Numbered from the stretch's first letter, positions 2,174 through 23,696 are shown. The stretch: DNA of 32,000 nt from Candidatus Electronema halotolerans (GCA_942493095.1 OW818675.1:330001-362000); one strand, 5' to 3'. The notes: a model not told the origin generated them from the sequence alone. Made by a program: numbers and translations.

Positions 2174-3232
2174 TCAGATGATCCAGTCTTGGAAAACCTC
2201 ATCCGGCAACGGCTGCACCTCAGAAAGCCTTCTTTCACCACTGCTTTTCTCTAACAGCACCTCACCAGGCAGCGGTCGGCCCTCTGTCTTGCGGCTGTAG
2301 CGCACCACCAGCCCTGCCGCCAAACCTGCCAGCTCCTCCTGCTGGGCCGGGGAAACGACCTCTTCCACCCGCCGCAGCAGCGCAAAAGGGCCGGGCCGTT
2401 CCGGCATGAAAAGCTGCCAGTCCTCCGGCCCGCGCAGTTCGCTCAGGCGGTCGTTTTCCTGCTCATTGCGGCCCAGCACCAGCCAATGCCCGCCAGGCAG
2501 TCGGAACTGGCGGCCAAGCAGCAGCAGCTTGATGTCCTCAGCCGTGATCTCGTCCTGGCTGATAGCCAACAGGCCCTTGTAAAAACGCTGAATCCGGGCC
2601 GAGAGAATGGGGTCAGTCAGCACGCAGCCTCCGGCAGGGGCGGGAAAATCGGCAATGCCCATCTGCCGGGCCAAGGCAAGCTGCTGGCTGCGCCCGCGCC
2701 CGGCAAAGCTGTGCAGCCGTTCCCGGTCCACCAGCCCCTGCTGCTCGGCCAAGGTGGGATTGAGCAGCTTGGCAGACAAAGGCCGAAGCAAAATATCCCG
2801 GCAGTCCGCCTCCCGCTCAATCAGATTCAGCGTGTCACGCCGCTGCGACATGGGCCGCTGGCCCAGCACTTCGCCGGTAATCAGGAAAGAGGCCCCGCGC
2901 TCCTCCATCAGCTCGCGGGCACGGCGCAGCATCATGATTTTGCAGTCAATGCAGGGATTGAAATTCTTGCCAAAACCATGTGCCGGGCGGCGGAGCATGT
3001 CAAGATAGCCGCTGCTCAGGTCGATCAGCTCGGCCTCCAGCCCGTATTTTCGTTGCATTTCCTGCTGAAACCGCTCCGCCTCAGCCAGCAGATGATGATC
3101 AAAAAACGGGGTGACACACTTCAGGGCCAGCACGCGGATGCCTTGAGCGGCGACGGTGCGGCAGGCGAGGATGGAGTCAAGGCCGCCGGAAAACAGGGCC
3201 AAGGCGGTGATGCTCGTGGATGAGGATTTCAT
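2174..3232 (-). CDS. PP-loop ATP-pyrophosphatase superfamily protein (ThiI/MnmA-like, putative tRNA/thio-cofactor sulfurtransferase)
   Basis: 352-aa ORF with the N-terminal SGGLDS PP-loop motif (ALALFSGGLDSILA), NPCIDCKIMM and ITGEVLGQRPMSQ motifs typical of this family. The exact subfamily is not resolved. Confidence 0.65.
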   Translation of the reverse strand: MKSSSTSITALALFSGGLDSILACRTVAAQGIRVLALKCVTPFFDHHLLAEAERFQQEMQRKYGLEAELIDLSSGYLDMLRRPAHGFGKNFNPCIDCKIMMLRRARELMEERGASFLITGEVLGQRPMSQRRDTLNLIEREADCRDILLRPLSAKLLNPTLAEQQGLVDRERLHSFAGRGRSQQLALARQMGIADFPAPAGGCVLTDPILSARIQRFYKGLLAISQDEITAEDIKLLLLGRQFRLPGGHWLVLGRNEQENDRLSELRGPEDWQLFMPERPGPFALLRRVEEVVSPAQQEELAGLAAGLVVRYSRKTEGRPLPGEVLLEKSSGERRLSEVQPLPDEVFQDWII

Positions 3233-15163: not shown

Positions 15164-16061
15164 AGCGTGGATGGGTAATGGTGAATCGTGAGTGATGGGT
15201 TGAAAATATGTTGAAATTGATGGAAAATATAATATACTGGCGGCAAGGGATGCTCTCTGTCCCATCGGCTCTTCGTCGGATGCGCATGTCAAGCCGTCAT
15301 TATGAAAAAAACAAACATGGAGAAGAAAGCTGTGCAATGCCCAAGATGTGGTTCATCAGTCATTGTGAAAAATGGCTCCAATGCGAATGGGAAAAAGAAA
15401 TTTTTATGTAAGGACTGCTCACGTCAATTCGTTGAGAATCCTCAGAACAAAACAATATCTGATGCTGAATGGCGCATAGTTGATAAGCTTCTTGTTGAAA
15501 GAATCTCATTGGCTGGGATTGCGAGAGCCGTTTCCATCTCAAAAAGATGGCTTCAGGAATATGTTAAAAAAAAACGAAATGAAGTCAAAAAAGAGGCTTT
15601 CAATATGTCCCGCAACGGAAAAATCTTCATCGAAGCCGATGAAATGTGGACTTTCGTTGGTGACAAGGAAAATGATATTTGGATATGGCTTGCTATCGAG
15701 AGAAGAACAAAGCTTATTGTCGGGTATCATGTTGGAAAAAGAGATAATGCAGGAGCAGCCGCCTTGTGGGACTCCCTTTCTGAAGATTGCAAAAAGAACG
15801 GAATATTTTTTACGGATGGACTCGCCGCTTATTCGAGCGTGTTTCCAGCTGAAAGGCATAGAATTGTCAGCAAAGGAAGCGGAAAAACAAGTCATATCGA
15901 AAGGCTCAATTTGACATTCAGACAAAGATTGTCTGCACTTGTCAGAAAGACCATTTCATTTTCGAGAAGCATCGAAAATTTAACTGCATCTGTCTGGAGG
16001 TTCATTCAAGATTATAATAATAATCTTTTGTTTAATTGATCACTCACAGTTCACCATCACC
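15164..16061 (+). mobile_element. IS1-family insertion sequence (898 bp), intact
   Basis: IRL is GGTAATGGTGAATCGTGAGTGAT (15164-15186) and IRR is the reverse complement of GGTGATGGTGAACTGTGAGTGAT (16039-16061), 20/23 identical. A perfect 8-bp direct repeat CGTGGATG flanks it at 15156-15163 and 16062-16069. Confidence 0.85.
15302..16039 (+). CDS. IS1-family transposase, single fused InsA-InsB-type ORF
   Basis: N-terminal zinc finger CPRCGSS...KFLCKDCSRQF and an HTH are followed by the InsB-like DDE region (DEMWTFVGDKENDIWIWLA...FFTDGLAAYSSV...KTSHIERLNLTFRQRLSALVRKTISFSRS). Confidence 0.9.
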   Translation: MKKTNMEKKAVQCPRCGSSVIVKNGSNANGKKKFLCKDCSRQFVENPQNKTISDAEWRIVDKLLVERISLAGIARAVSISKRWLQEYVKKKRNEVKKEAFNMSRNGKIFIEADEMWTFVGDKENDIWIWLAIERRTKLIVGYHVGKRDNAGAAALWDSLSEDCKKNGIFFTDGLAAYSSVFPAERHRIVSKGSGKTSHIERLNLTFRQRLSALVRKTISFSRSIENLTASVWRFIQDYNNNLLFN

Positions 16062-17963: not shown

Positions 17964-18632
17964 TTAATACGGTCTTTGCCCAACAACATTGCCTGGAGGA
18001 GAGTAACTGCACACCCATATCTGCCCGTTGTCACCGCAGACAGACATGGCGCAGCCGACTTCTTTGGTGGTCTTCCAAACAAGCTGCGTGTAGTGACCAC
18101 AGACCCCGGAACAGCTGTTGTTCGCATAGTTGTAGTCTTTAATCTCGCTTCCCCAAGCACCAACGACATCCTTGGCTGTCTTGGGCGAGAAATCCCGGCG
18201 GCCATCAGACCACATAATGGCGGTGGCCTGATAAATGTTCTCGCCATAGCCGTTGCCGCTGTGATACATGCCGCAGCTGTCGTTCTTGAGATGATCAGCC
18301 CAGCCTTGGGCAATGCCTGCCAGCTTGGCCGACCATCTGAGCGGAGGAGAACCAACCTCCGCCCGCCAGCGGTTGTGCTCGGCTGTCAAGGCAGCCGGGT
18401 CAACACCGCCGCTCCGACTGACTGCTGCGGGGGCAGTTTCCTCTGGAATCACTGATGTTTCCACAGTCCAAATCTCGTCTTCCGCAGCTAAAACGCTGGC
18501 CGAAGGAACAAACGGCTCTGCTGCTTCCGGTTTTGACTGACAGGCTGCAAGAGCGGAAAGCAGCAGAATTCCAGCCATCACGGACATCTTTTTGGGGAGA
18601 TTGCTTCCTCCTGTGAATGTTGCGTTTTTCAT
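17964..18632 (-). CDS. CAP/SCP/PR-1-like domain lipoprotein
   Basis: Signal peptide with lipobox (LLLSALAAC), then a CAP domain with the GHYTQLVWKTT and VCSYSPPGNVVGQRPY signatures. AGGAGG RBS is present. Confidence 0.8.
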   Translation of the reverse strand: MKNATFTGGSNLPKKMSVMAGILLLSALAACQSKPEAAEPFVPSASVLAAEDEIWTVETSVIPEETAPAAVSRSGGVDPAALTAEHNRWRAEVGSPPLRWSAKLAGIAQGWADHLKNDSCGMYHSGNGYGENIYQATAIMWSDGRRDFSPKTAKDVVGAWGSEIKDYNYANNSCSGVCGHYTQLVWKTTKEVGCAMSVCGDNGQIWVCSYSPPGNVVGQRPY

Positions 18633-18815
18633 GATACCCTCCTGGTATGGGTAAAGCAGACAACCCGGCTGTCTCTATTGCGCCAGAGACCCGTGGCTTT
18701 CCGGCACCGCCTCACGACGGTTGTGGCCTTACAACTTTCCAGTGCGGCGACACCGCGTCTCCGCACCAACCAGAAAGTTCTACTAACTCTGCTTGGTTAA
18801 TAAGCAGTTCCTTAT
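18633..18815 (-). promoter_or_regulatory. Roughly 185-nt highly structured 5' leader (candidate riboswitch/cis-regulatory RNA)
   Basis: It lies between a near-consensus promoter and the CAP gene. It contains at least 6 hairpins, mutually exclusive CTGCTT/AAGCAGA/TCTGCTT pairings and an SD-embedding hairpin ATACC-AGGAG-GGTAT. Confidence 0.45.
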
Positions 18816-18821
18816 ACTTTT

Positions 18822-18851
18822 ATTATAGGGCAAAAAAATTGTACCTGTCAA
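18822..18851 (-). promoter_or_regulatory. sigma70 promoter TTGACA-N18-TATAAT (minus strand)
   Basis: Plus-strand tgtcaa at 18846-18851 and attata at 18822-18827. Confidence 0.55.
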
Positions 18852-19029
18852 GTCTTTTTGATAATAATTATCACTTTGCAGTAAATATTTAATCGCATGT
18901 TTATATTTAATTTTTTGAAAAATAAATTCAAAGTTTAAAATATTAAATTATTTTTTTGAACACAAAAAAAATTTTCAGCAGCATTTCTGCGGCGCGGGTG
19001 CCGCTTTTTTCTTCAACCAAGCCGAGCCT

Positions 19030-20717: not shown

Positions 20718-23696
20718 GTGAGTGAACAAAACAAGCCGTCCTACGGGGCGGATCAGATCAAGGTGCTTGACGGGCTTGAAGCCGTGCGCAAGCGTCCGTC
20801 CATGTATATCGGCAACACTTCGGAAGAAGGGCTGCATCACCTGATTTACGAGGTGGTGGACAACTCGATTGACGAGGCCTTGGCCGGATATTGCGACCGG
20901 ATCAGGGTGATCCTCTTGGAGGACGGCTCCTGCTTGGTTGAGGACAACGGGCGCGGCATTCCGATTGACAAGCATCCAACCGAGAACATGACCGCTTTGG
21001 AATTAGTCATGACCACTCTGCACGCGGGCGGCAAGTTTGATCACTCGTCCTACAAGGTTTCCGGCGGCCTGCACGGCGTGGGCGTGTCTGTGGTCAATGC
21101 CCTGTCAACCAAGGTGATTGCTGAGGTCTGGCGCAACGGCAAGGTCTATCGCCAGATGTATGGGTATGGGGACAAGACCAGCGAGCTGGAGGTGATCGGC
21201 ACGAGCGAGCACACCGGCACCCGCATCACCTTCACGCCAGACCCGGAGATATTTACCCAGACTGTCAGCTTCAAGTATGAGACTGTCCTCAACCGGCTCC
21301 GCGAGCTGGCCTTTCTCAACCGGGGCATTCACATCACCCTCAAGGACGAGCGCAGCGGGGCTGAGGATGTTTTTCATTATCAAGGTGGCATTGTTGAATA
21401 TGTCGAACATTTGAACCGCAACCGCACTGCTGTTCATCCCAAGCCTATTTTTATTGAAGGCGAGCGGGACCAGGTGCAGGTGGAAGTCTGTCTGCAATAT
21501 GTTGACAGCTACAGCGAACGGCTGGCCTCCTTTGTCAATAACATCAACACCCGCGAAGGCGGAACCCATCTGGCTGGTTTCCGGGCAGCCCTGACCAAGT
21601 GCATCAACAAGTATGCCACTGACGACATTGTCCCGAAAAATCTGAAAGAACGGATGGAAGGCGATGATGTCCGCGAAGGGCTGACCGCCATTGTTTCCGT
21701 GCGAGTGCCCAATCCTCAGTTTGAAGGCCAGACCAAGACCAAGCTGGGCAACTCAGAGGTCAAGTCGATTGTCGCCTCGGTCTGCAATGAGCAGCTTGGC
21801 GAATATTTGGAGCAGAACCCGCAGGTTGCCAAGCAGATTCTCAGTAAGGCCGTGGAAGCGGCGCGGGCGCGGGAGGCGGCCCGGCGGGCGCGGGACCTGT
21901 CGCGGAAAAAAGACGGCCTTTCCGTGATGATGGCGGGCAAATTGGCTGAATGCCAGTCGAAAAAACCGGAAGAACGCGAACTGTTCATTGTTGAGGGTGA
22001 TTCAGCAGGCGGCTGTTTTTCCGGGGCTACCAAAGTAGCCTTGGCTGATGGCCGCGCTCTGAGCTTCCTGGAGCTGATCGCCGAGCAGGCTCAAGGCAGG
22101 GATCACTGCTGCTACACAATCCGGGATGATGGCAGAATTGGACTGGAGCGAATCCTTCATCCCCGCCTGACTAAACGGCAGCAGGAAGTGCTGCGAGTAA
22201 CCTTGGATCATGGCGAGCAGATTGTCTGCACCCCGGATCACCGTTTCATGCTTCGGGACGGCAGCTATTGCCCGGCAGAACAGCTGGCCGAAGGCAGTTC
22301 GCTGATGCCGCTTTACCGCAAATTGTCCGACAAAGCCAGCCATTCAGGCAATGAGCTGGTCTGGGAGCCGGATGCGGGCCGCTGGCGTTTTCCGCATCTT
22401 TTTTCCGAGCAGCCGAGATGCCGGGCTGCGTGGGAAGATTTTGAGGAGGATGCGTCCTGCGCGGCTGACAATCATCATGTTGTCTCTGTGGAAAAGCTGG
22501 CCGAGCGCATGGATGTCTATGACATTGAAGTGCCCAACACCCACAATTTTGCCTTGGCTGGCGGTGTGTTTGTCCACAACAGCGCCAAGCAGGGCCGGGA
22601 CCGCTCTTTCCAAGCCATTCTGCCTTTGCGCGGCAAGATCATGAATGTGGAAAAGGCCCGTTTTGACAAAATCCTTGACTCTGAAGAGATCAAGCAACTT
22701 ATTGCCGCCCTTGGCACTGGCATTGGCCGGGAGGAGTTTGACCCAAGCAAGCTGCGCTATCATAAAGTCATTATCATGACAGACGCGGACGTGGATGGCG
22801 CGCATATCCGCACCTTGCTGCTGACCTTTTTCTACCGCCAGATGCTGCCGCTGATTGAGAACGGGCATATCTACATCGGCCAGCCGCCGCTCTACCGCTT
22901 GGGCCGGGGCAAAAAAGAGCAGTATTTCTTGAATGATGATGCCCTGAACAGTCATCTCTACGATCAGGCGGCCCAGTTTGTCCAAGTCCGGGTGGAGAGC
23001 GGCGGTGAAATTGTCGGGCAGGAATTAGTCAATCTTCTGAAGAAGCTGACTTTTTTTGAGCAGCTTAATGCGTTCTTGGAGCGGATGAATCTGCACGAAA
23101 CGCTTGTTCGTTTTCTGCTGGCCAATGATGTGCATTCAGCAGATCAGTTCAAGGACGAGCAGTTCCTGCGTGAGCTGCTGGCCAAGTTAGCCAGCCAAGG
23201 CGCGGCGGTCAGCGAAATCCGGCCCTGCTTCTCCCGGCCCGGCTGCTTTGAGGCGGATGCGGCCTTGCAGGGGCTGGGCCACAGCCGCACGGTCATTGGC
23301 CCGCATATTCCGCTGATTCCTGAATACCGCCTTGGTCTTGATCTTTATCCTGAAATTCAGGATTATGTCGGCATCAGCTTCAGCATCTGCAAGAGTGCCG
23401 CTTCCGGGCAGGAGCGGGATATTCCGGCCAAGAACTGGCGCGAGCTGATCCGGCTGGTGCGCGAGGAAACCTTCCGGGGCAGCCATTTGCAACGCTACAA
23501 GGGTTTGGGCGAGATGAACCCGGAGCAGCTCTGGGAAACCACCATGAACCCGGCCAACCGCACCCTGCTGCAAGTGAGGATTGAGGATGCCGAGGCAGCG
23601 GATGATCTGTTTGTCACCCTGATGGGCGACAAGGTGGAGCCACGGCGTGAGTTCATTCAGAATCACGCTTTGGAAGTTGCTGAGTTGGATGTGTGA
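20718..23696 (+). CDS. gyrB: DNA gyrase subunit B, interrupted by an in-frame mini-intein
   Basis: GHKL ATPase (VLDGLEAVRKRPSMYIG, EVVDNSIDEA, GLHGVGVS), Toprim (EGDSAGG/SAKQGRDR, IMTDADVDGAHI) and tail (GLGEMNPEQLWETTMNP). It is 992 aa versus about 803 aa after removal of residues 433-621. Confidence 0.95.
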   Translation: MSEQNKPSYGADQIKVLDGLEAVRKRPSMYIGNTSEEGLHHLIYEVVDNSIDEALAGYCDRIRVILLEDGSCLVEDNGRGIPIDKHPTENMTALELVMTTLHAGGKFDHSSYKVSGGLHGVGVSVVNALSTKVIAEVWRNGKVYRQMYGYGDKTSELEVIGTSEHTGTRITFTPDPEIFTQTVSFKYETVLNRLRELAFLNRGIHITLKDERSGAEDVFHYQGGIVEYVEHLNRNRTAVHPKPIFIEGERDQVQVEVCLQYVDSYSERLASFVNNINTREGGTHLAGFRAALTKCINKYATDDIVPKNLKERMEGDDVREGLTAIVSVRVPNPQFEGQTKTKLGNSEVKSIVASVCNEQLGEYLEQNPQVAKQILSKAVEAARAREAARRARDLSRKKDGLSVMMAGKLAECQSKKPEERELFIVEGDSAGGCFSGATKVALADGRALSFLELIAEQAQGRDHCCYTIRDDGRIGLERILHPRLTKRQQEVLRVTLDHGEQIVCTPDHRFMLRDGSYCPAEQLAEGSSLMPLYRKLSDKASHSGNELVWEPDAGRWRFPHLFSEQPRCRAAWEDFEEDASCAADNHHVVSVEKLAERMDVYDIEVPNTHNFALAGGVFVHNSAKQGRDRSFQAILPLRGKIMNVEKARFDKILDSEEIKQLIAALGTGIGREEFDPSKLRYHKVIIMTDADVDGAHIRTLLLTFFYRQMLPLIENGHIYIGQPPLYRLGRGKKEQYFLNDDALNSHLYDQAAQFVQVRVESGGEIVGQELVNLLKKLTFFEQLNAFLERMNLHETLVRFLLANDVHSADQFKDEQFLRELLAKLASQGAAVSEIRPCFSRPGCFEADAALQGLGHSRTVIGPHIPLIPEYRLGLDLYPEIQDYVGISFSICKSAASGQERDIPAKNWRELIRLVREETFRGSHLQRYKGLGEMNPEQLWETTMNPANRTLLQVRIEDAEAADDLFVTLMGDKVEPRREFIQNHALEVAELDV
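22014..22580 (+). other. GyrB mini-intein (189 aa, Hint domain only)
   Basis: It starts with Cys (CFSGATKVALADG), contains TPDHRF (block B) and ends VYDIEVPNTHNFALAGGVFVHN followed by Ser+1. Excision recreates EGDSAGG-SAKQGRDR. Confidence 0.85.

What the first reader, a model, noticed from the sequence alone, without database searches (positions are those of the whole stretch)
18633..18851. Consensus promoter plus a roughly 185-nt multi-hairpin leader before the CAP-domain gene: candidate riboswitch with GEMM-I-like 3' half
On the minus strand, TTGACA-N18-TATAAT (18851-18822) is followed by a long untranslated leader ending at the AGGAGG/ATG of the CAP lipoprotein gene. The leader folds on paper into successive hairpins: CTGCTT/AAGCAG, GTGCGGaGAC/GTCgCCGCAC, GTTGT/ACAAC, GTCTCT/AGAGAC and AGACA/TGTCT. 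The segment AAGCAGA (18788-18794) can pair with the upstream CTGCTT (18802-18807). It can instead pair with the distal TCTGCTT (18654-18660), which would close a roughly 125-nt domain. Such mutually exclusive helices are typical of switches. The SD lies in the loop and 3' arm of ATACC-AGGAG-GGTAT (18634-18648). The stretch GGAAAGCCACGGGUCUCU-GGCGCAAU-AGAGACAGCCGGGUUGUC (18659-18700) closely resembles my recollection of the conserved c-di-GMP-I (GEMM-I) second hairpin (..GCAAAGCCnCGGnCU...CAGCCGGGUUnCC). An upstream CGCACUGGAAA-hairpin recalls CGCACAGGGCAAA-hairpin. However, the junction between the hairpins is about 12 nt longer than in canonical GEMM-I and GCAAA is replaced by GGAAA. It may therefore be a divergent GEMM variant or an unrelated structured RNA.
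Basis: partly seen in the sequence, partly recalled or inferred. Interest (0 to 1): 0.65.

Follow-up and report, generated by a model that had tools for sequence, protein, structure and literature searches.

The report
Cyclic-di-GMP-type riboswitch before CAP gene
The leader of this secreted CAP-domain lipoprotein gene holds a real riboswitch of the well-known cyclic-di-GMP class I (GEMM-I) fold. It comes from a cable-bacterium relative and has an unusual conserved extra hairpin that looks built to hide or expose the ribosome-binding site.

Summary
A 12/12 sigma-70 promoter (18851-18822, minus strand) drives a leader of about 183 nt that ends at AGGAGG/ATG of a CAP (PF00188) lipoprotein gene.

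Rfam places a complete GEMM-I-fold aptamer at 18736-18655 (67.1 bits, E 1e-12). The best-scoring model, c-di-GMP-I-UAU, is not diagnostic. The window has G20, A47 and U92, not U-A-U, and a C92/G20 orthologue scores even higher on that model.

In 21 orthologous cable-bacterial leaders, position 92 is either U or C (the canonical base). It covaries with an upstream partner (A-U 6, G-C 6, G.U 7).

A hairpin absent from canonical GEMM-I lies just 5' of the aptamer. Its distal stem covaries strongly and its base is invariant. The 5' strand of that base, CUUUCUGGU, is a 9-bp complement of the Shine-Dalgarno region. Folding with this strand paired either way gives nearly equal energies.

Best reading: a translational cyclic-dinucleotide riboswitch, probably sensing c-di-GMP and probably an OFF switch. 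Ligand and direction are inferred, not shown. This is a new member of a known class with an unusual expression platform.

The parts
18822..18851 (-). Sigma-70-type promoter TTGACA-N18-TATAAT. The transcription start is inferred near 18815, which gives a leader of about 183 nt.
   Evidence: 12 of 12 hexamer matches. TTGACA and a TAnnnT -10 are conserved at the same spacing in 13 freshwater orthologues. The start site is not mapped.
18788..18807 (-). Hairpin HP1. The 5' arm s1 is CUGCUU (18807-18802) and the 3' arm s2 is AAGCAG(A) (18794-18788). Arm s1 has the same sequence as the aptamer's 3' tail, so s1 and the tail compete for s2.
   Evidence: Duplex energies are -7.9 kcal/mol for s1:s2 and -9.3 for s2:tail. 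Both pairings are kept in orthologues. Pair 53-75 shows UA, UG and CG; pair 77-208 shows AU 6, GC 6, GU 7. Marine Electrothrix uses a different sequence (GCUCG...CGGGC) with the same logic.
18733..18779 (-). Extra hairpin P0, between s2 and the aptamer. Base: AACUUUCU (18779-18772) paired with GGAAAGUU (18740-18733). Distal stem: 18767-18741. Segment 'a', CUUUCUGGU (18777-18769), is also a 9-bp complement of the Shine-Dalgarno region.
   Evidence: In the distal stem, 5 of 6 pairs carry compensatory double changes across 21 sequences. The base is invariant on both strands apart from 2 CA cells and G.U/A-U variants. The element occurs only in cable-bacterial loci among all loci fetched. It is not part of any Rfam GEMM model (consensus lines).
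18655..18736 (-). Aptamer of the GEMM-I (c-di-GMP-I clan) fold. P2 is 18726-18701 with a GUGA tetraloop. P3 is 18698-18662.

Pocket equivalents in Vc2 numbering:
- G20 = 18727
- C21-G46 = 18726/18701
- A47 = 18700
- G91 = 18661
- U92 = 18660
- C93 = 18659
   Evidence: RF03168 scores 67.1 bits, E 1.2e-12, over the full model, with two lower clan hits underneath. P2 and P3 are 99-100% paired in 21 orthologues, with a compensatory change in P2. The letters were read against the three Rfam consensus lines.
18650..18660 (-). 3' tail of the aptamer, UCUGCUUUACC. It pairs either with s2 (long-range helix, including U92) or with segment b, GGAAAGU (local, canonical-position P1).
   Evidence: The long-range helix is 7 bp. 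Its pair with position 92 shows three pair types. The local P1 is 3-7 bp in orthologues, with pair 127-219 showing GC 12, GU 7, AU 2. The two pairings overlap and exclude each other.
18630..18646 (-). Ribosome-binding region. Segment d is ACCAGGAGG (18646-18638), the Shine-Dalgarno sequence AGGAGG is 18643-18638, and the start codon ATG is 18632-18630.
   Evidence: The a:d duplex is -12.7 kcal/mol against -12.2 for a:b. The a:d helix is 96% paired in 21 sequences. Forcing a:b or a:d gives minimum-energy folds within about 0-5 kcal/mol in 18 of 21 sequences (up to 7.4).
17964..18632 (-). Regulated gene: a 222-aa CAP/SCP (PR-1-like) domain lipoprotein. It is monocistronic, with a terminator-like hairpin at 17935-17905.
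   Evidence: PF00188, E 1.4e-24. Terminator-like site. Orthologues occur in Candidatus Electronema and Electrothrix relatives.

Best explanation
The leader is a cyclic-dinucleotide riboswitch of the GEMM-I (c-di-GMP class I) fold that controls translation of the CAP lipoprotein mRNA.

Shown:
- A complete three-helix-junction aptamer lies at 18736-18655. Its pocket letters are G20, A47 and U92.
- Orthologues in related cable bacteria carry the canonical C92.

Inferred, ligand:
- The ligand is most likely c-di-GMP, with U92 pairing to one guanine by a G.U wobble.

Inferred, mechanism. The leader switches between two nearly isoenergetic folds.
- Without ligand, segment a (CUUUCUGGU) pairs with segment b (GGAAAGUU) to form the base of the extra hairpin P0. 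The aptamer tail, including U92, is held by the upstream segment AAGCAGA. The Shine-Dalgarno sequence is then largely free.
- With ligand, b pairs with the tail GCUUUACC to form the canonical P1 next to the pocket, and AAGCAGA returns to its own hairpin with CUGCUU. The released segment a then pairs with ACCAGGAGG and hides the Shine-Dalgarno sequence.
- So translation goes OFF when the dinucleotide is high, as in the Vc2 translational OFF switch.

My confidence in each step:
- GEMM-I-fold riboswitch: about 0.95.
- Translational control through segment a: about 0.6.
- Ligand is c-di-GMP: about 0.6.
- OFF direction: about 0.45.
For: Aptamer:
- Full-length hit above the gathering score, E 1e-12.
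- P2 and P3 are 99-100% paired in 21 orthologues.

Pocket letters:
- Read against the Rfam consensus lines.
- Eight orthologous leaders have UUGCC, i.e. C92, with the same G20 and A47.
- In Vibrio cholerae, a C92U mutant of Vc2 keeps a partial c-di-GMP response (bioRxiv 10.1101/617340).
- A U92-type relative precedes a PilZ gene (L031), and others precede typical GEMM cargo: PEP-CTERM proteins, a pilin, a transglutaminase and another CAP gene.

Switch:
- P0's distal stem has 5 of 6 pairs with double changes, while its base is invariant in 21 sequences from two genera.
- The a:d duplex is -12.7 kcal/mol against -12.2 for a:b, and segment a is the best Shine-Dalgarno complement in the leader.
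- Folds constrained to a:b or a:d differ by about 0-5 kcal/mol in 18 of 21 sequences (up to 7.4), with a:b about 2 kcal/mol more stable on average. That is what one expects of a ligand-free ground state.
- Enforcing three core pairs of the local P1 lowers the mean unpaired probability of the Shine-Dalgarno sequence from 0.42 to 0.12. It raises P(a:d) above 0.8 in 12 of 21 sequences, at a cost of about 4.7 kcal/mol.
- The long-range helix pairs position 92 (AU 6, GC 6, GU 7), and G91 as well in marine sequences. It therefore occludes pocket nucleotides, as an anti-aptamer helix would.

No intrinsic terminator follows the aptamer in the window. Vc2 is described as a translational OFF switch of this class (PMC9262584).
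Against: - No binding or expression data exist for this RNA, and the transcription start is not mapped.
- Segments a, b and d never vary, so the a:d and a:b pairings have no covariation support.
- The a:d complementarity alone is only modestly unusual: 18 of 300 shuffles reach the same energy.
- The local P1 is only 3-4 bp in the C92 group and in L087/L088. It leaves C93 and U94 unpaired, unlike the canonical P1.
- The long-range helix starts exactly at C93, where the canonical P1 starts. The ligand-bound form could therefore be the four-way junction, which would make this an ON switch.
- Energy differences of 0-5 kcal/mol are within the error of the folding model.
- Marine Electrothrix leaders have an additional local UUUCCU anti-Shine-Dalgarno sequence. 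It keeps the site mostly paired in all modelled states, which this model does not explain.
- U92 could change the ligand.
Confidence: 0.55

Rival explanations
1. Same aptamer and same segments, but an ON switch. The ligand stabilises the four-way junction: the long-range helix AAGCAG/CUGCUU starting at C93, plus P0, P2 and P3. P0 takes the place of the canonical P1, so the fold is in effect opened between positions 92 and 93 and capped on P1. That locks CUUUCUGGU in P0 and leaves the Shine-Dalgarno sequence free. Without ligand, the CUGCUU/AAGCAG hairpin forms and CUUUCUGGU sequesters the Shine-Dalgarno sequence.
For: - The four-way junction is the minimum-energy fold of the window and of many orthologues.
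- The long-range helix begins at C93, exactly as the canonical P1 does (consensus structure of RF03167).
- With P0 acting as P1, the junction before G20 is 5-7 A-rich nucleotides, like the canonical 'aaAAa'.
- The upstream CUGCUU is an exact mimic of the tail, a typical anti-P1 device.
- Relatives with a flipped 21-46 pair and U92 in Desulfuromonadales carry terminators built on the P3 3' strand, i.e. ON switches.
Against: - The supposed ligand-bound fold is already the ground state without ligand, so nothing would need switching unless control is kinetic.
- The long-range helix pairs U92/C92 with a covarying partner, and G91 too in marine sequences. That blocks the base that should read the ligand.
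- No four-way-junction GEMM-I has been described, to my knowledge.
Confidence: 0.25
2. The aptamer is a specificity variant. With G20 kept and C92 changed to U, it prefers 3',3'-cGAMP (G read by G20, A paired to U92) or another A-containing dinucleotide over c-di-GMP. Its C92 orthologues would still sense c-di-GMP.
For: - U92 would form a Watson-Crick pair with adenine.
- An engineered G20A/C92U Vc2 mutant binds c-di-AMP (PMC7288161).
- The window shares with the Geobacter cGAMP riboswitch (PDB 4YAZ) a C at position 21 and a G at position 91. In 4YAZ numbering these lie within A14, C15 / G74, C75, C76.
- U92-type relatives are common in Desulfuromonadales and Geobacter, where cGAMP signalling is known.
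- The internal partner of position 92 switches from A to G together with U to C.
Against: - Orthologous leaders of the same gene alternate between C92 and U92 with everything else in the pocket unchanged. That is easier to explain if both read the same ligand through G-C or G.U.
- A C92U Vc2 mutant still responds to c-di-GMP.
- From memory of Smith et al. 2010 (Biochemistry 49:7351, not retrievable here), U92 is a common natural variant that still binds c-di-GMP.
- The known determinant for cGAMP is A20, and here position 20 is G.
- A PilZ gene lies behind one U92-type relative.
Confidence: 0.15
3. It is a true member of the Rfam variant class c-di-GMP-I-UAU, whose altered pocket suggests a ligand other than c-di-GMP; I could not retrieve the defining paper to confirm what is known about its ligand.
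For: RF03168 is the best-scoring Rfam family and passes its gathering score, 67.1 against 65.9 bits.
Against: - The class is named for U at positions 20 and 92, and the window has G at 20 (alignment).
- A G20/C92 orthologue (L086) scores 68.9 bits on the same model.
- Near-identical orthologues flip between RF03168, RF03167 and RF01051.
- The model therefore rewards the shape of P2 and P3, not the pocket letters.
Confidence: 0.04

Closest known systems
c-di-GMP-I (GEMM-I) riboswitch, Rfam RF01051, e.g. Vibrio cholerae Vc2
   Same: - Same three-helix junction, with a GNRA-capped P2 and a long P3.
- Same junction letters: G20, the AAA with A47, and AGCCGGGUUG.
- It precedes a secreted or surface-protein gene, as is typical of GEMM.
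- It probably controls translation through P1, as the Vc2 OFF switch does (PMC9262584).
   Different: - C92 is U here, though orthologues have C.
- The G21-C46 pair is flipped to C-G.
- There is no 11-nt tetraloop receptor; the P2 loop is GUGA.
- A conserved 47-nt hairpin (P0) sits immediately 5' of the junction.
- A second upstream hairpin mimics the tail.
- The candidate anti-Shine-Dalgarno sequence lies 5' of the aptamer, not 3' of it.
c-AMP-GMP (3',3'-cGAMP; GEMM-Ib) riboswitches of Geobacter, e.g. Gs1761 (PDB 4YAZ)
   Same: - Same fold.
- Same C at position 21 and G at position 91.
- Related host group (Desulfobacterota).
- Relatives of the window's subtype occur in Geobacter and Desulfuromonadales.
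   Different: - GEMM-Ib has A20 and C92, whereas the window has G20 and U92.
- The Geobacter switches are transcriptional ON switches (PMC9262584), whereas no terminator follows the aptamer here.
c-di-GMP-I-UAU (RF03168) and c-di-GMP-I-GGC (RF03167) variant classes
   Same: - Members of the same Rfam clan.
- RF03168 is the top-scoring model.
- Shares G91-U92 ('UUGUC') and a GYRA tetraloop with the RF03168 consensus.
   Different: - Position 20 is G, not U, so the window is not U-A-U.
- Position 47 is A and position 92 is U, so it is not G-G-C.
- The family assignment is unstable among orthologues.

Membership tests
GEMM-I fold (Rfam clan CL00126) | Covariance-model match over the full aptamer at or above a curated gathering score | tested here: met
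   RF03168 scores 67.1 bits against a gathering score of 65.9, E 1.2e-12, model positions 1-81 of 81. Two further clan models match underneath.
GEMM-I fold (Rfam clan CL00126) | P2 and P3 helices supported in related sequences | tested here: met
   Across 21 orthologous leaders, P2 is 99-100% paired and P3 is 100% paired. P2 pair 147-162 shows AU, GU and GC. Most pairs are invariant, so covariation inside the aptamer is thin.
GEMM-I fold (Rfam clan CL00126) | Position in a 5' leader, in the sense orientation, before a gene of the 'environment, membrane, motility' type | tested here: met
   The aptamer ends 22 nt before the ATG of a CAP lipoprotein gene, downstream of a consensus promoter.
c-di-GMP-I proper (RF01051; c-di-GMP-sensing) | G20, which reads the Hoogsteen face of one guanine | tested here: met
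   G at 18727, directly 5' of the 21-22 pair. It is invariant in all 21 orthologues.
c-di-GMP-I proper (RF01051; c-di-GMP-sensing) | A47, which intercalates between the two bases of the ligand | tested here: met
   A at 18700, the first A of GGAAAG. It is invariant in all 21 orthologues.
c-di-GMP-I proper (RF01051; c-di-GMP-sensing) | C92, which forms a Watson-Crick pair with the second guanine | tested here: not met
   U at 18660 (UUGUC, where the consensus has UgCC). Eight of 21 orthologous leaders do have C. A G.U wobble with the ligand is possible but was not tested.
c-di-GMP-I proper (RF01051; c-di-GMP-sensing) | Binds c-di-GMP selectively | not testable with these tools
   This needs in-line probing, ITC or a gel shift.
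c-di-GMP-I-UAU (RF03168) | U at position 20 | tested here: not met
   Model position 10 (consensus U) aligns to G.
c-di-GMP-I-UAU (RF03168) | A at position 47 and U at position 92 | tested here: met
   A at 18700 and U at 18660.
c-AMP-GMP riboswitch (GEMM-Ib) | A at position 20 | tested here: not met
   G at 18727. The defining role of A20 is taken from PMC6140456.
Translational riboswitch (Shine-Dalgarno sequestration) | Mutually exclusive pairings that link aptamer closure to Shine-Dalgarno accessibility | tested here: inconclusive
   In silico only. The a:b and a:d folds are near-isoenergetic. Enforcing the local P1 lowers the unpaired probability of the Shine-Dalgarno sequence from 0.42 to 0.12. 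The segments involved show no covariation because they are invariant.

The most novel reading that the evidence does not exclude
Cable bacteria carry a rearranged GEMM-I riboswitch. In it, a loop-capped hairpin (P0) takes the place of the canonical P1, and the chain instead enters and leaves the junction between positions 92 and 93 through a new long-range helix. This is a four-way-junction, effectively permuted form of the fold. The ligand-reading base 92 (U or C) is paired to an internal A or G that mimics the ligand base until the ligand displaces it. The U92 forms may have shifted specificity toward an A-containing dinucleotide such as 3',3'-cGAMP bound in the reverse orientation.
Probability: 0.12. 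Interest if true: 0.7.

Novelty: new member of a known kind. Interest (0 to 1): 0.4.

Why it matters
- It places cyclic-dinucleotide riboswitch control in cable bacteria (Candidatus Electronema and Electrothrix relatives). I found no paper linking the two.
- It identifies a secreted CAP-domain lipoprotein and, in marine species, a 122-aa secreted protein of unknown family as cargo of that signalling.
- The orthologous C92/U92 series with a covarying internal partner is a natural experiment on how the ligand-reading base of GEMM-I is tuned.
- The invariant 5' hairpin, which doubles as an anti-Shine-Dalgarno sequence, is an unusual expression platform that could be tested directly.
- It shows that the Rfam labels c-di-GMP-I-UAU and c-di-GMP-I-GGC can be assigned to sequences that lack the defining pocket letters. 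This matters for anyone counting variant riboswitches from automated annotation.

Tried and rejected
- **Rfam label taken at face value.** Rejected. The window has G20, a C92/G20 orthologue passes the UAU model, and orthologues flip between three families.
- **Paper hairpins GTTGT/ACAAC and AGACA/TGTCT.** Rejected. They conflict with P2 and P3 and are not conserved.
- **ATACC/GGTAT hairpin around the Shine-Dalgarno sequence as the main sequestrator.** Only partly conserved; it is absent in L079, L085 and the marine group.
- **Intrinsic terminator after the aptamer.** None in the window. Marine orthologues have a U-run after the tail, but I found no stem for it.
- **Tail (YCUGCU) pairing with AGGAGG.** RNAalifold predicted this. 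I kept it as a minor alternative: the duplex is only -6.5 kcal/mol, with an internal mismatch.
- **Other Rfam families in the leader.** Only noise: RT-6 at E 0.048 and AilA at E 3.9, both far below their gathering scores.
- **Metagenome pattern scan.** The pattern was too narrow and gave only 3 loci. Orthologues were obtained instead through CAP protein homologues.
- **Papers not held in the library.** Weinberg et al. 2017 PNAS, Smith et al. 2009 and 2010, and Kellenberger et al. 2015. Statements about U92 as a common natural variant, and about the ligands of the UAU and GGC classes, therefore rest on my memory.
- **P0 outside cable bacteria.** Not found in any of the other genome loci fetched.

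Full report
**What is at the coordinates**

On the minus strand, TTGACA-N18-TATAAT occupies 18851-18822 and matches the consensus at 12 of 12 positions. The next gene, 18632-17964, encodes a 222-aa protein with a CAP/SCP domain (PF00188, E 1.4e-24) and a lipoprotein signal (LSALAAC). It ends at a terminator-like hairpin at 17935-17905, so it looks monocistronic. The leader between promoter and ATG is about 183 nt, assuming transcription starts about 7 nt after the -10 box. It folds better than dinucleotide shuffles (-70.4 kcal/mol, z = -2.4).

Scanning the whole window against Rfam 15 at gathering thresholds gives one hit. It is RF03168, c-di-GMP-I-UAU, at 18736-18655 on the minus strand: 67.1 bits against a gathering score of 65.9, E 1.2e-12, all 81 model positions. 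Lower-scoring clan matches lie underneath: one in the whole-window scan and two in the local scan. The aptamer is complete.
- P2 is CCACAACCGUC-GUGA-GGCGGUGCCGG.
- P3 is AGCCACGGGUCUCU...AGAGACAGCCGGGUU.

That is why it saw a junction '12 nt too long'. 'GGAAA instead of GCAAA' is the 3' half of a flipped G21-C46 pair, here C-G with both sides changed.

**Which member of the clan**

I read the pocket letters against the three Rfam consensus lines.
- Canonical c-di-GMP-I is ..AAaG-GCAAA.., ..GACGC-AAAgCc.., ..GcUgCC, that is G20, A47 and C92.
- The UAU class has U-gCAAA and UUGUC.
- The GGC class has GACGCGAA.

The window has G20 (18727), A47 (18700), G91-U92-C93 (18661-18659) and a C21-G46 pair. 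That makes it G-A-U, not U-A-U.

The family label is not diagnostic.
- Near-identical orthologues are assigned to RF03168, RF03167 or RF01051.
- Orthologue L086, which has G20 and C92, scores 68.9 bits on the UAU model.

I therefore file the element in the GEMM-I fold but not in the UAU class.

**Related sequences**

A degenerate pattern for P3 plus UUGUC found 73 loci among the species-representative genomes. These include Candidatus Electrothrix, Candidatus Electronema and other Desulfobulbaceae with the same leader.

CAP protein homologues and their contigs gave more orthologous leaders. I aligned 21 distinct leaders as alignment A1. The closest named relatives are cable bacteria.

Thirteen of the 14 freshwater-type leaders keep TTGACA and a TAnnnT -10 at the same spacing (L088 is cut off upstream), which supports the promoter.

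**Position 92**

Thirteen leaders have U92: the window, L079, L082, L084, L033, L092 and seven marine Electrothrix sequences. Eight have the canonical C92: L085, L086, L089, L091, L093, L094, L087 and L088. G20 and A47 never change.

Position 92 covaries with the last base of an upstream segment, AAGCAGA in the window (18794-18788). The counts are A-U 6, G-C 6, G.U 7 and unpaired 2 (pair 77-208). These may reflect few independent events.

Marine sequences use a different upstream sequence, AAAGCGGGC. In a register shifted by one column, it pairs with the same tail through G91.

In all groups the upstream segment is also the 3' arm of a small hairpin. The 5' arm of that hairpin (CUGCUU, or GCUCG in the marine group) mimics the tail.

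**An extra conserved hairpin**

Between that segment and the aptamer lies a hairpin, P0 (18779-18733), which is not part of any Rfam GEMM model.
- Its distal stem is rewritten between lineages: GUGCGG/CCGCAC, GUACGG/CCGUAC, CAGGGG/CCCCUG. Five of its 6 pairs have compensatory double changes.
- Its base, AACUUUCU/GGAAAGUU, is invariant on both strands in all 21 sequences, apart from 2 CA cells and G.U/A-U variants.
- Among all loci fetched, it occurs only in cable bacteria.

Helices that only need to pair tolerate covariation, so this invariance suggests more than one partner. Two further partners are present:
- CUUUCUGGU (18777-18769, segment a) is a 9-bp complement, with two G.U pairs, of ACCAGGAGG (18646-18638, segment d). 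Segment d contains the Shine-Dalgarno sequence.
- GGAAAGU (segment b) can pair with the tail GCUUUACC. That forms a local P1 in the canonical position.

**Energetics (in silico, inferred)**
- The a:d duplex is -12.7 kcal/mol and the a:b duplex is -12.2. Segment a is the best Shine-Dalgarno complement in the leader, though 18 of 300 shuffles reach that energy.
- Forcing a:b or a:d gives minimum-energy folds within about 0-5 kcal/mol of each other in 18 of 21 sequences (up to 7.4). The a:d fold is the global minimum in several, and a:b is favoured by about 2 kcal/mol on average.
- In the a:d fold of L079 and L082, the canonical three-way junction (local P1, P2, P3) appears by itself.
- Enforcing three core pairs of the local P1 costs about 4.7 kcal/mol. 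It lowers the mean unpaired probability of the Shine-Dalgarno sequence from 0.42 to 0.12.
- Enforcing the long-range helix costs about 2.7 kcal/mol and gives 0.53.

**Mechanism I commit to**

This is a translational switch.
- Without ligand, the RNA holds P0 (a:b) and the long-range helix, which also covers U92. The Shine-Dalgarno sequence is largely open.
- With ligand, the canonical junction closes through the local P1. The upstream segment falls back into its own hairpin, and the freed CUUUCUGGU covers the Shine-Dalgarno sequence.

This is the OFF logic described for Vc2 (PMC9262584). Two things favour it: the helix that pairs positions 91 and 92 should belong to the ligand-free state, and the a:b fold is the ground state without ligand.

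The opposite direction is not excluded. In that version the ligand stabilises the four-way junction. Its long-range helix starts at C93, exactly as the canonical P1 does, and the local P1 is only 3-4 bp in some orthologues. I give OFF about 0.45 and ON about 0.25.

**Ligand**

c-di-GMP is the most likely ligand.
- The C92 orthologues have the full canonical pocket.
- The U/C alternation at an otherwise constant pocket fits G-C or G.U pairing with a guanine.
- A Vc2 C92U mutant keeps a reduced c-di-GMP response in vivo (bioRxiv 10.1101/617340).
- From memory of Smith et al. 2010 (not retrievable here), U92 is a common natural variant that still binds c-di-GMP.

Relatives elsewhere with the same U92 and flipped pair precede another CAP gene (L021), PEP-CTERM proteins, a pilin, a transglutaminase-like protein and a PilZ protein (L031). 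Most of them have terminators built on the P3 3' strand.

A shift to 3',3'-cGAMP (G read by G20, A paired to U92) cannot be excluded. An engineered G20A/C92U mutant binds c-di-AMP, and the Geobacter cGAMP aptamer shares C21 and G91 with the window (PMC7288161; PMC6140456).

**Novelty**

The class is known and Rfam finds the element, so it is a new member of a known kind. What may be new:
- the P0 hairpin with an anti-Shine-Dalgarno sequence 5' of the aptamer;
- the internal partner of position 92;
- the host group. A full-text search found no paper holding both 'cable bacteria' and riboswitch or c-di-GMP among the top results.

**Limits**
- There is no experimental evidence of any kind for this RNA.
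- The segments central to the mechanism are invariant, so they are untestable by covariation.
- The 21 sequences come from a few related lineages.
- Several key papers could not be read.

Noticed in passing
window 18859-18873: A perfect 15-nt palindrome, TGATAATAATTATCA, matches the Fur-box core TGATAATnATTATCA with 0 mismatches. About 0.04 sites with up to 2 mismatches are expected in the window. It ends 7 nt upstream of the -35 box of the CAP promoter. Orthologous freshwater leaders keep it (e.g. TGATAATCATTATCA in L082, GATAACTATTATC in L085). It suggests iron/Fur-type transcriptional control on top of the riboswitch, or control of the divergent CHAD gene.
   Followed up: partly
L024 3036-3635, and L036, L049, L068, L076-L078: In marine Candidatus Electrothrix the same leader (P0 plus aptamer) precedes a monocistronic 122-124-aa secreted protein with no Pfam match, not a CAP gene. 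These leaders also carry an inserted U-rich stretch with a local UUUCCU anti-Shine-Dalgarno sequence. It keeps the site mostly paired in every modelled state, which my switch model does not explain.
   Followed up: partly
window 20718-23696 (+): The GyrB ORF is 992 aa. It has an insertion after the GDSAGG motif that begins CFSGATKVAL and ends VFVHNS, which looks like an intein. I judged this by eye from the translation and did not test it.
   Followed up: no
window 15302-16039 (+) and 2486-3223 (+): There is an IS1-family transposase (InsA zinc ribbon plus DDE_Tnp_IS1, 245 aa) at 15302-16039. A second 245-aa ORF lies at 2486-3223 and may be another copy; I did not compare them.
   Followed up: no
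L094 22-950 (-): A CRISPR array (16 repeats matching RF01317, CRISPR-DR4) lies about 500 nt upstream of the CAP leader in this orthologous metagenome contig.
   Followed up: no
L087 1419-3611, L091 1501-2955, L093 1501-2990: Several cable-bacterial relatives have two or three CAP-domain genes in tandem behind the riboswitch-controlled one. The window has a single copy.
   Followed up: no
L057, L060, L073 (Methylococcaceae): U92-type GEMM aptamers here have a hairpin (UUAAGAGC...GCUCUUAA) abutting G20 directly. Their GGGGGG Shine-Dalgarno sequence is complementary to the P2 5' strand CCCCC. They precede PEP-CTERM proteins. This is another non-canonical 5' arrangement.
   Followed up: no
L023 4046-4140 and 6604-6691 (Alicyclobacillus macrosporangiidus): One genome carries both a U92 (UUGUC) and a C92 (UUGCC) c-di-GMP-I aptamer within 2.6 kb, and both have G20.
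   Followed up: no
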